From: Octopus vulgaris
Taxonomy: Eukaryota
Direction of reading: 5' to 3'
Assembly: GCA_951406725.2 (NCBI GenBank)
Contig: OX597834.1
Span: 39,556,001-39,620,000, forward strand
DNA: 64,000 nt
The notes beneath the pieces were generated by a model. It was not told the origin of the DNA. It saw only the letters and a list, made by a program, of their open reading frames with translations, and did not search any database. The position numbers and the translations under genes were made by a program. Positions within the stretch are counted from its first letter, which is position 1. Every line of letters starts with the position of its first letter. This document shows, in pieces, positions 37,344-55,187 of the stretch.

Positions 37344-39179
37344 AATGGTTCATATTTTTCTATATAAGCAATATATTTTTGTAAACATCAATTTCAGATG
37401 AAAAAATTAAGAACCAGCACTGTTGAGAGAGAGAGAGAGAGAGAGAGAGAGTAAGGAATTGAAATGTAGTGTAAATAGGATTATATATTGTCCAGTAAAC
37501 ACTAGATACTGAGTTCAAATACTGTAAGAGGATTAAAAAATTTTTTTATCTGAAATTGGTGCACAGAGATTTTTAATTACAAATAAAAAGAAAACAATAA
37601 ACTAAGGGCAGCAAAAAACCCCTAATATTGCAACAAAATCATGCTTTTTTTTTCTTGTTTTTTTGACAAAACAGGAGAGTCAAGGCACACTGAATCCCTC
37701 CCTGTTGTGTTAGAAACATGCAAACAGCCTGGTGTGATTATTGAGACAGATTTGCAGAAAAAAAAATGTTGAAGAGTTTGTTAAGCGCTGAAGACTACTG
37801 GCAGATAAACGGGGGGGAAGGGGTAAAGAGTTAGCTAGAGAAAGAGAGACGGAGAGAGGTGGACGGATTAATTATTAAGGCTTTGATTACAGCAATATTG
37901 TAGCAAAATAAAGAGCAGGAAGAGAGAAAGAAAGAGAGCATAAGAGACATGCAACAATACAATTGCGAAACTAAAAGAAGGAAAAAATAATACAAGAAAG
38001 GGAGTTTTTTAATGAAAAAAACAAAAATACTAGGCAAGGGTTGAGGTCCGGGGAGTGGGATGGTTGGGTTAGGGGCAGTGTGAAAGGGGGGTCAGAAATT
38101 AACGAAAAAAAGGTCAAAATGTCTTCAAATAACAATGCAGTATTTGTTTGATGTATTATATATCTCACCAGGCAGAGGTTGTCTTCATTTTGTCTTCCAC
38201 TCAGATACAACAGCGACATTACTCACAAGTGTCTCACAAGTGTCGGAGCTTGATGGAGGAATAAAAAAAAATTGTAAACAAACAAAAAAAAAAAAAGAGA
38301 GAAAAGAAGAAAAAAAAAACACTCGTCAGTAAATGATGTGGAAGAGTGGCGGCAGAGGCGGCCTAACTAATTTGGGAGGAGCAGAGCGGTGGGGGAAAAC
38401 GGGGAAGCTTGGGTGAGGAGAGAGAATCTTTGGCAGGTGGTGCAGAGGGGGAGACTTGGTTCGTTTGATTTCTACAAACAAGATATAACATATTGGTTAT
38501 TGCTGGATGTGAAAAAAGATGATCGTTTGACAACAGGAAGGAAAGGCAACAGGAGAGAAAGGGTGGAGGAAAACAAAAACAAAAAAAAAATACAAAAAAC
38601 AATCCCATGTACAACCCTCTCCCCCCACCCTTCATCATCTCCTCCTGACCATCTTCAAACTGAGAATGCAAATAAGTGAAATGAAGAAATTTCAGGTGAG
38701 ATCGCAAAAGATTTTCTTCAGGTGAGATCACACAAGATTTTCTTCAATGGATTTTGAAGAAATTTTGAAGAACAGAGAGTTGTAGAGTTTTTACTCTCTT
38801 TCAATATGGTCCTTGTTTCCAAGACTCTGAAGATGGTTGTCTTTTCTTTGTAAGAAATCAAGACATTGCTTCTTTGCTAAATGACCCTTGGACAGGTCAA
38901 AGCTTCCAACTCTGTTTACAATGTCTAGTATTTATATGGTTATGTAGATGCCTCCTGTATATACCAAGAACATCCATTCAATATACAGATGCCAACCAAG
39001 AGCTTATTAGGTCTATCTGTCTCTATATATATATCAATCTATCTATCTATCTATATGGTACACAGATGTCAAAGGTATACACTTTGTGTATCTTGAAGGT
39101 AACATCTATATAGTATAGAAGGGGCAACTGTATATACCTAGAGCATCCCTATGGTGTGTGTGTATATATATATTTTCAG

Positions 39180-40969: not shown

Positions 40970-41865
40970 ATCCTCCAGCAATGAGATATTCCTCCAGTAA
41001 TGCGGCAATGAAACATTGCCCCAGCACTGTGCCACCAAGACACTCCTCCATCTATGTAGCACTACAATACTCCTCCAGCAGTTTGCCACTGACATGCTCC
41101 ACTGACAGTATACCACTAAAATACTCATTGAGTGATGTACCACTGAGATATTCCTCCAGCAGTGTGCCACTGAGATACTTCCCCAGCAGTGTGTCACTGT
41201 GATATTCCTCCAGCAGTGTGCCACTGAGATACTCCTCCAGCTGTATGCCGCTAAGATATTCCTCCGGCAGTGTGCCAGAGATACTCCTCCAGCTGTATGT
41301 CACTGAGATACTCCTCCAGCAGTGTGCCACTGAGACACTCCTCCAGCTGTATGCCACTAAGATACACCTCCAGCAGTGTTCCACTGAGATACTCCCCCAG
41401 CAGTGTGCCACTGTGATACTCCTCCAGCTGTATGCCACTAAGATATTCCTTCAGCAGTGTACCACTGAGATACTCCTCCAGCAGTGTGCCACTGTGATAC
41501 TCCTCCAGCTGTATGCTACTAAAATATTCCTCCAGCAGTGTGCCACTGAGATACTCTCCCAGAAGTGTGCCACTGAGATACTCCCCCAGCAGTGTGCCAC
41601 TGTGATACTCCTCCAGCTGTATGCCACTAAGATATTCCTCCAGTAGTGTGCCACTGAGATACTCCTCCAGCAGTGTGCCACTGAGATACTCCTCCAGCAG
41701 TGTGCCACTGTGATACTCCTCCAGCTGTATTCCACTAAGATATTCCTCCAGCAGTGTGCCACTGAGATACTCCTCCAGCAGTGTGCCACTGAGATACTCC
41801 TCCAGCAGTGTGCCACTGTGATATTCCTCCAGCTGTATGCCACTGAGATATTCCTCCAGATATTC
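40970..41865. repeat. 27-bp minisatellite, ~33 units
   Basis: Unit gccactgagatactcctccagcagtgt with variants; degenerate at the left end. Confidence 0.95.
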
Positions 41866-46372: not shown

Positions 46373-46534
46373 GTGCATCTCAAACATCCTTTTATGCTTG
46401 CTTTCTTTGCTGGCATGGGTTGGACAGTTTGGCAGGATGTAACAATGCTGAAGCACACATTTTACTCCAATGTCTCTGTTTTGGCTATGTTTCTAAGGTT
46501 GGATGCACTTCTAATACCAGCTGCACTTCAGATT

Positions 46535-46960
46535 GTACTAAGTCCATATTGTCATGGCACCAGCTCTATAGATGTTGTCTTGCCCTCAGCAAGTCTAAAG
46601 AATTCTCTCCACCCAGTATTATCACTGCTTGGTTTGCCAGTGTACTAAGTCCATATTGTCATGGCACCAGCTCTATAGATGTTGTCTTGCCCTCAGCAAG
46701 TCTAAAGAATTCTCTCCACCCAGTATTATCACTGCTTGGTTTGCCAGTGTACTAAGTCCATATTGTCATGGCACCAGCTCTATAGATGTTGTCTTGCCCT
46801 CAGCAAGTCTAAAGAATTCTCTCCATCCAGCATTATCACTGCTTGGTTTGCCAGTGTACTAAGTCCATATTGTCATGGCACCAGCTCTATAGATGTTGTC
46901 TTGCCCTCAGCAAGTCTAAAGAATTCTCTCCACCCAGTATTATCACTGCTTGGTTTGACA
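46535..46960. repeat. 107-bp tandem repeat, 4 near-identical units
   Basis: gtactaagtccatattg at 46535, 46642, 46749 and 46856. Confidence 0.96.
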
Positions 46961-54984: not shown

Positions 54985-55187
54985 CGCTCTATGACAGTCT
55001 TAATTTGGTCGTCTTTCTCAGCTTGCTGTTTGCGCATTCGTTCCTCACTCTCCTCTAAACGCTGTTGCCAGTCCTGCATCATCTGTTGCGTACCCGATTC
55101 TTGGGTGAACAGCATACGTTCAGCTTCATGAAGACGGGATTGCGCCTCCAGTAACTGCTTCTTCAACGTAGAAACTTCTTTCTCGTA
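54985..55187 (-). CDS. Penultimate coding exon of a RASAL2/DAB2IP/SynGAP-family Ras GTPase-activating protein (C-terminal coiled coil)
   Basis: Translates YEKEVSTLKKQLLEAQSRLHEAERMLFTQESGTQQMMQDWQQRLEESEERMRKQQAEKDDQIKTVIE(R), closely resembling the RASAL2/DAB2IP/SynGAP coiled coil (YEQEI..LKERL...RLE.SEERLRRQQ.EKDSQ.KSII.R, recalled). Acceptor cttacag| at 55188, donor CG|gtatgt at 54984; 203 nt, ends in phase 2. Confidence 0.93.

What the first reader, a model, noticed from the sequence alone, without database searches (positions are those of the whole stretch)
38221..38331. Candidate frameshifting microexon (11 or 22 nt) with tandem donors in the RasGAP coiled coil
Seen (minus strand): a strong branch point TACTGAC (38331-38325), a ~70-nt pyrimidine-rich AG-free zone, then acceptor catcaag| and ctccgacactt-gtgagacactt-GTGAGT. 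An exact 11-bp tandem duplication (38222-38243) gives two donors: gtgaga (11-nt exon, 38248-38238) and gtgagt (22-nt exon, 38248-38227). Spliced between the two coding exons these give ...ER-SDTS* or ...ER-SDTCETLLDRL*, with stops in the last exon (likely escaping NMD) and a truncated coiled coil. Established (recalled): vertebrate SynGAP-beta arises by a frameshift at the homologous junction. Inference: convergent, possibly neural, C-terminal isoform switching.
Basis: partly seen in the sequence, partly recalled or inferred. Interest (0 to 1): 0.7.

Follow-up and report, generated by a model that had tools for sequence, protein, structure and literature searches.

The report
Stop-carrying cassette exon shortens octopus RasGAP
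An octopus gene related to the synaptic regulator SynGAP splices an optional 80-base exon (not the proposed tiny one) into part of its messages; this swaps the protein's last 82 residues for a short tail at the same position where vertebrate SynGAP changes its tail, and likely shifts where in the cell the enzyme sits.

Summary
The splice signals are in the sequence as described, but the exon is not 11 or 22 nt. RNA contigs show an 80-nt cassette exon (38248-38169, minus strand) that reads through both proposed donors and uses a third, CTG|GTGAGA at 38168. In 3 of 4 runs one 137-nt record covers the exon and joins the last coding exon, beside a 57-nt skip record. These are the lengths predicted for an 80-nt cassette; the 69- and 80-nt records predicted for the microexons are absent. 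Rough inclusion is 31-57%. The exon encodes R|SDTCETLVSNVAVVSEWKTK*, and its stop ends 16 nt before the last junction, so it likely escapes NMD. This tail is already in an Octopus sinensis RefSeq model, and a homologous tail occurs in cuttlefish. It removes a predicted helix of about 55 residues and a conserved S-x-C end. Vertebrate SynGAP beta-frame tails start at the aligned residue, but arise from an alternative acceptor, with no resemblance between the tails. So the convergence idea survives and the microexon idea does not. Neural regulation and function are untested.

The parts
38169..38248 (-). 80-nt alternative cassette exon; codes (R)SDTCETLVSNVAVVSEWKTK then stop, then 16 nt of 3' UTR
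   Evidence: 137-nt contig, letters 28-108 on 38249-38169 with 0 mismatches in X3, X4, X5; same records, letters 108-137, on 13676-13647; length predicted; tail in P0002 and P0022
38325..38331 (-). branch-point-like TACTGAC (branch A predicted at 38326, 77 nt from the acceptor G)
   Evidence: sequence; use as branch point not tested
38251..38324 (-). polypyrimidine tract / AG-free zone (82% pyrimidine, no TGC)
38249..38251 (-). AAG splice acceptor, used; the only AAG among 18 mapped acceptors of the gene
   Evidence: junction in proteins P0002 and P0022
38163..38168 (-). donor actually used (CTG|GTGAGA)
   Evidence: contigs stop matching at 38169 and continue in the last exon
38185..38187 (-). 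in-frame TGA stop of the short isoform, ending 16 nt before the exon's 3' end
38222..38243 (-). exact 11-bp tandem duplication inside the coding part of the exon; holds the two donor-like hexamers (38237-38232 and 38226-38221) that are read through
   Evidence: unbroken 137-nt contigs; no 69- or 80-nt records at the last exon
54985..55187 (-). upstream coding exon (203 nt, ends in phase 2); first 67 residues of the coiled coil, aligned to SynGAP 5JXC
13426..13675 (-). coding part of the last mapped exon: 82 residues with a predicted helix at 4-55 and a terminal S-A-C; becomes 3' UTR when the cassette is included
11000..13425 (-). likely unspliced 3' UTR shared by both isoforms (its end not mapped)

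Best explanation
An 80-nt cassette exon with its own stop codon is spliced between the last two coding exons of the octopus SynGAP/DAB2IP/nGAP-family RasGAP in a sizeable share of transcripts, replacing the last 82 residues with a 20-residue tail, which likely gives a stable short isoform that is predicted to be less tethered than the long one. Shown: exon limits, both spliced forms side by side in three runs, the stop position, a homologous tail in cuttlefish, and alignment of the junction with the start of vertebrate beta-frame tails. Inferred: (1) NMD escape, since the stop ends 16 nt before the last mapped junction and the included form is abundant; (2) the short protein keeps PH, C2, GAP and the first 68 coiled-coil residues but loses a predicted helix of about 55 residues and a conserved S-x-C end that may be a PDZ-type ligand; (3) by analogy with SynGAP-beta, this moves GAP activity from a scaffold-bound pool to a more soluble one; (4) stopping here matters more than the exact last residues, because the octopus exon reads VEDK, the end of a cuttlefish-like tail, in another frame. 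The 11-bp duplication is most likely an incidental octopus-lineage change whose donor-like hexamers are normally ignored.
For: Contigs: 137-nt records cover 38249-38169 (depth 55.8, 23.2, 118.6) and, with the same depths, 13676-13647; 57-nt skip records lie beside them (41.7, 52.8, 103.2). predicts 137/57 for the 80-nt exon, 69/58 for 11 nt and 80/58 for 22 nt. All 30 loose-end letters are explained by the upstream exon end or the cassette end, against 25 and 26 of 30 for the 22- and 11-nt forms. X1 bin depths fit the same 81-nt span. Proteins: of 29 cephalopod-type proteins, 24 reach the junction; 17 have the long tail, 2 the octopus cassette tail, 3 the cuttlefish-type tail and 2 read into the intron. 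Octopus and cuttlefish-type tails share 6 of the first 14 residues ungapped (shuffle p 0.001 and 0.002); 1 of 1629 AG sites in the intron gives 6 or more of 13 matches, and it is this one. Junction homology: 5JXC alignment, E 4e-15; 12 of 120 vertebrate proteins switch to the beta-type frame at the aligned residue. SynGAP-beta behaviour: passages of PMC7314543. NMD rule: passages of PMC12668785.
Against: All RNA evidence is assembled contigs, whose depth is a poor measure of level, and the runs are only guessed to be RNA. The spliced records have 28-30 letters on the short side, under the 31 that the tool asks for to call a bridge. The 27 upstream letters of the 137-nt record were never displayed; that side rests on length arithmetic and on the protein models. 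X1 gave no record at the last exon. No protein, localisation or tissue data exist here. The last few tail residues differ between lineages, and the long AG-free zone is ordinary for this gene. The 12 vertebrate beta-frame tails found are from birds and reptiles and are 85-259 residues long, not short; the short mammalian beta tail was not among the 120. That 13675 starts the last exon is inferred from gene models. P0022 may not be independent of this genome.
Confidence: 0.8

Rival explanations
1. One reading: an 11- or 22-nt frameshifting microexon using the tandem donors, possibly only in neurons, as a minor form beside the 80-nt exon.
For: Both hexamers exist. The 22-nt donor matches a recalled U1 consensus at 7 of 11 positions against 6 for the used donor. 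Contigs drop rare variants, and only 4 of 22 listed runs, of unknown tissue, were laid.
Against: The 137-nt record is unbroken across both donors in X3, X4 and X5. No 69- or 80-nt record joins the last exon. 0 of 24 cephalopod proteins end so. In cuttlefish-type tails codon 4 is Glu, which leaves no GT at the first donor, and Val-Asn weakens the second (inferred from protein). No TGC in the tract (the UGC signature of neural microexons is recalled).
Confidence: 0.07
2. Poison exon: inclusion serves to lower the amount of full-length RasGAP through decay or an inert product, and the tail has no role.
For: In-frame premature stop; the tail's last residues appear frameshifted between octopus and a cuttlefish-like record; inclusion adds 266 nt to the 3' UTR.
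Against: The stop ends 16 nt before the last mapped junction, inside the 50-nt escape zone. The included form is about as deep as the skipped form in 2 of 3 runs. An LVxxVAV core is kept in all three tails. All catalytic domains are retained.
Confidence: 0.1
3. Alternative last exon: transcripts enter at 38248 and end at a poly(A) site in the intron.
For: The protein tail alone fits this, and poly(A)-like hexamers lie at 38013, 37577, 37346 and 36882.
Against: Depth is 0 at 38025-38125 in 4 of 4 runs, and the record leaves at 38169 for the last exon.
Confidence: 0.03

Closest known systems
Octopus sinensis nGAP isoform X5 (XP_029649239.1; P0002) and CAI9738577.1 (P0022)
   Same: Identical 20-residue tail after the junction: the protein isoform is already in public gene models.
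   Different: These are automatic models. The protein record does not show that the exon is a cassette spliced on to the last exon, nor its level or conservation.
Vertebrate SynGAP-beta (SYNGAP1 exon 18 extension / e19a)
   Same: The tail changes at the aligned residue of the coiled coil. It gives a partial coiled coil without the terminal ligand; beta is about 22% of human junction reads, co-sediments less with PSD-95 and is more cytoplasmic (PMC7314543 passages). Its acceptor is also AAG (PMC9064290 passage).
   Different: Beta uses an acceptor 13 nt upstream of the normal one and reads the next exon out of frame. The octopus uses a separate 80-nt exon 16.7 kb and 24.5 kb from its neighbours, with its own stop. 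The tails show no resemblance. The octopus long form ends in S-A-C like DAB2IP, not in the alpha1 QTRV ligand.
SynGAP-gamma
   Same: An optional exon with a short coding stretch and a stop (PMC7314543 passage): the same splicing logic.
   Different: It lies one intron further 3' and leaves the coiled coil complete.
Acanthosepion pharaonis CAE1282819.1 / CAE1282818.1 (P0003, P0025) and unnamed P0004
   Same: Homologous 19-residue tail at the same junction (7 of 20 columns invariant).
   Different: No DNA seen, so exon length and donor are unknown there. The residues imply that the 11-bp duplication is absent.
Bivalve gene models with short tails (P0008 Mercenaria, P0042 Ruditapes, P0061 Dreissena)
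   Same: The tail changes at the same junction.
   Different: Unrelated to the coleoid tail (1-2 identities, shuffle p 0.15-0.66); they may be independent events or annotation read-through.

Membership tests
SynGAP/DAB2IP/RASAL2 RasGAP family (host gene) | PH, C2, RasGAP and DAB2P_C domains in order | tested here: met
   PF25321, PF00168, PF00616, PF12004 all above cut-off in P0021 and P0022; exons mapped to the window and upstream loci
Microexon | length about 3-27 nt (definition recalled) | tested here: not met
   spliced exon is 80 nt
Microexon | UGC motif in the tract, as in SRRM3/4-type neural microexons (recalled) | tested here: not met
   no TGC in 38324-38249
Microexon | neuron-specific inclusion | not testable with these tools
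   runs carry no tissue label
Alternative cassette exon | included and skipped forms between the same two exons | tested here: met
   137-nt and 57-nt records in X3, X4, X5; short sides 28-30 letters
Poison (NMD-coupled) exon | stop more than 50-55 nt upstream of the last junction | tested here: not met
   16 nt; rule from PMC12668785 passages; last-exon status inferred
Poison (NMD-coupled) exon | inclusion rises on NMD block | not testable with these tools
   needs an experiment
Alternative last exon | transcript continues into the intron to a poly(A) site | tested here: not met
   record is spliced at 38169; depth 0 at 38025-38125 in 4 of 4 runs
SynGAP-beta isoform class | tail switch at the homologous coiled-coil junction | tested here: met
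SynGAP-beta isoform class | made by an upstream alternative acceptor (13 nt) of the next exon | tested here: not met
   separate cassette here; beta mechanism from PMC9064290 passages
SynGAP-beta isoform class | homologous beta-type tail | tested here: not met
   octopus tail shows no likeness, by inspection, to the beta-frame tails or the beta antigen peptide
SynGAP-beta isoform class | reduced scaffold binding and phase separation, more cytoplasmic | not testable with these tools
   analogy only

The most novel reading that the evidence does not exclude
Coleoids independently evolved a SynGAP-beta equivalent: a conserved, regulated, neuron-biased cassette that cuts the RasGAP coiled coil at the same intron as vertebrate beta and toggles Ras/Rap GAP activity between a scaffold-bound synaptic pool and a diffusible pool. 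This intron would then be a recurrent tuning point in lineages with large brains, and the unrelated short tails in bivalves and fishes would be further independent uses.
Probability: 0.3. Interest if true: 0.62.

Novelty: new variant of a known kind. Interest (0 to 1): 0.38.

Why it matters
C-terminal splicing decides where mammalian SynGAP acts and whether it supports LTP or dendrite growth (PMC7314543 passages). A conserved, abundant cephalopod isoform cut at the same residue by a different splicing route would be a clean case of convergent isoform design in an independently evolved complex brain, and it is easy to test with one RT-PCR and one antibody. If it proves unregulated or functionally neutral, it is an ordinary alternative exon that RefSeq already models. 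My searches listed no paper that, by title or abstract start, treats it.

Tried and rejected
1) Alternative last exon: my first reading after the protein match; rejected. 2) Distant-branch-point exon as a special class (PMC1431707, outline and abstract read): the AG-free zone is ordinary for this gene. 3) A second genomic copy: the only other hit of 38150-38400 in G000 is 58 nt of the pyrimidine tract (L002). 4) Short tails among distant representatives: of 150, 26 matched the upstream-exon profile; 25 have tails of 66-378 residues and 1 ends at the junction. Members of a scorpion cluster (8) and a tick cluster (5) all have the long tail, so no evidence of an ancient shared short form. 5) Bivalve short tails as homologues: not supported. 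6) No listed holder is on record as RNA; the runs are treated as RNA because their contigs skip the introns exactly. X1 gave no record at the last exon, which is no evidence of absence. 7) X3 has a small unexplained extra depth at 38126-38327 (2.76 and 0.69 per bin); the record was not listed. Its 4:1 spread lies mostly 3' of both proposed donors, so it does not fit the 11- or 22-nt forms. 8) Papers: PMC11168454 (passages) concerns other gap-2 isoforms and never mentions the coiled coil; bioRxiv 10.64898/2026.09.05.749416 (passages) includes O. bimaculoides but names no SynGAP, DAB2IP or RASAL in its main text; its supplements were not seen and could list this exon. 9) Earlier scan findings: none bears on this locus. 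10) No complex prediction was run, since a trimer pass would mostly reflect likeness to 5JXC.

Full report
Observation. The flanking coding exons end at 54985 (phase 2) and start at 13675. The duplication is the only exact non-simple 11x2 tandem in the window. The AG-free zone is not special: 71 nt ranks 4th among the gene's 18 mapped acceptors (range 24-90), although AAG is unique among them.

The gene. The upstream exon finds RasGAPs named nGAP, DAB2IP-like or SynGAP, 100% identical in Octopus sinensis. P0021 maps exon by exon to the window and the next 80 kb of G000 and has PH, C2, RasGAP and DAB2P_C domains. The first 80 residues of the C-terminal region align without gaps to the SynGAP coiled coil 5JXC (E 4e-15).

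First clue against the microexon. Reading on through both proposed donors gives R-SDTCETLVSNVAVVSEWKTK-stop (TGA 38187-38185). This is exactly the C-terminus of P0002 (O. sinensis isoform X5) and P0022. Cuttlefish models P0003 and P0025 end SESEVHLVNKVAVAQAENK, and an unnamed transcript-derived protein, P0004, ends SESEVQLVNKVAVAQVEDK. The Octopus cluster has 19 members, of which 15 were listed. The tails are homologous: 6 of the first 14 residues ungapped, shuffle p 0.001 and 0.002, and only 1 of 1629 AG sites in this intron gives such a match (alignment).

RNA evidence. Of 22 listed runs I laid four, one from each of four studies. In X3, X4 and X5 a 137-nt contig matches 38249-38169 with letters 28-108 and no mismatch; X1's record is not listed, but its bin depths fit the same span. 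At the last exon, records of the same length and depth match 13676-13647 with letters 108-137, and 57-nt records do so with letters 28-57; nothing else was laid, and X1 gave none. For 31-letter words, an 80-nt cassette between these two exons predicts 137 and 57; the 11-nt form predicts 69 and 58, and the 22-nt form 80 and 58. The 30-letter loose-end consensus is fully explained as a mix of the upstream exon end and the cassette end (30 of 30, against 25 and 26 for the microexon forms). Depth ratios give inclusion of 0.57, 0.31 and 0.53. These are rough, because contig depth is a poor measure and tissues are unknown. Limits: the short sides are 28-30 letters, under the tool's 31-letter bridging rule; the upstream 27 letters of the 137-nt record were not shown; contigs drop rare variants, so a rare or neuron-restricted 22-nt form is not excluded, and its donor scores slightly better on a crude consensus count. 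X3 has a small unexplained extra depth that does not fit either microexon.

How it likely works. The stop ends 16 nt before the junction to the last mapped exon, inside the 50-55-nt zone that escapes NMD (PMC12668785, passages). The abundance of the included form agrees. The short protein keeps all catalytic domains and 68 residues of the coiled coil. These include a Leu and a Lys 50 residues apart, conserved between octopus and mouse, which I take to be the L1202/K1252 pair whose mutation blocks SynGAP trimers; this mapping is inferred from spacing, and Zeng 2016 is known to me only through PMC7314543. It loses the 82 residues of the last exon, of which 4-55 are a confident single helix (pLDDT 94-99 over residues 1-50, single-sequence model), and a terminal S-x-C found in 13 of 25 distant long-tailed homologues. 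That this end is a PDZ-type ligand is my inference from a recalled consensus. In another frame the octopus exon reads VEDK, the last four residues of P0004, which suggests compensating indels and weak constraint on the extreme end, while LVxxVAV is kept. I therefore favour a stable short isoform whose main property is loss of the distal helix and end motif, shifting localisation or oligomer state. The duplication looks incidental: cuttlefish-type residues leave no GT at the first donor and weaken the second.

Comparison. SynGAP-beta arises from an acceptor 13 nt upstream of the normal one, has a partial coiled coil, co-sediments less with PSD-95 and is more cytoplasmic (PMC7314543 and PMC9064290, passages). 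Among the 120 vertebrate proteins listed (of 563 hits, all 1244 residues or longer), 98 continue with RL, 2 did not match my pattern and 20 change tail at the aligned residue. Twelve of these are bird and reptile models in the beta-type frame, with tails of 85-259 residues; the short mammalian beta form was not in the list. So the junction is homologous, but the route and the tail are not: this works like beta and is not a member of that class. Unrelated short tails at the same junction appear in 3 bivalve models and a few fish models; these may be annotation read-through. Distant representatives and the scorpion and tick clusters gave no sign of an ancient shared short form.

Novelty. The protein isoform is already in automatic gene models. 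Searches for SynGAP with octopus, microexon with octopus, family isoforms and cephalopod cassette exons listed nothing on it; most hits I saw only as listings, the library lacks most subscription papers, and the supplements of a 20-species splicing preprint were not seen.

Verdict. Exon structure is well supported, function is by analogy. Interest 0.38.

Noticed in passing
L003:1748-1780, minus strand (G000:C21, about 1.8 kb beyond the window's right end): A 33-nt in-frame exon coding TDIDGSESDPE just before the coiled-coil exon; present or absent among isoforms of O. sinensis, P0001/P0010 and cuttlefish, with a homologous peptide in cuttlefish. This is the gene's real near-microexon candidate.
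   Followed up: partly
window 38169-38200 against 54985-55016, minus strand: The last 32 nt of the cassette match the last 32 nt of the upstream exon at 17 of 32 positions in register with the donors; the cassette end might derive from a partial duplication of that exon end. No chance estimate made.
   Followed up: no
window 13429-13440, minus strand: The long isoform ends YRSSAC; a terminal S-x-C is shared by 13 of 25 distant homologues, including scorpion, amphioxus and DAB2IP-like fish proteins. No function seen in the papers read.
   Followed up: partly
window 16369-27718: An 11.3-kb TG-rich simple satellite inside the intron downstream of the cassette, with strong strand skew.
   Followed up: no
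window 13680-14077: A 49-bp unit repeated 8.5 times directly upstream of the last exon's acceptor; its copies carry pyrimidine-tract-plus-CAG sequences on the minus strand that look like decoy acceptors.
   Followed up: no
window 40982-41859 and 46534-46957: Intronic tandem arrays (27 bp x 32.6; 107 bp x 4.0) between the upstream exon and the cassette.
   Followed up: no
window 38126-38327, run X3: Small extra contig depth beyond the 137-nt record, record not listed.
   Followed up: partly
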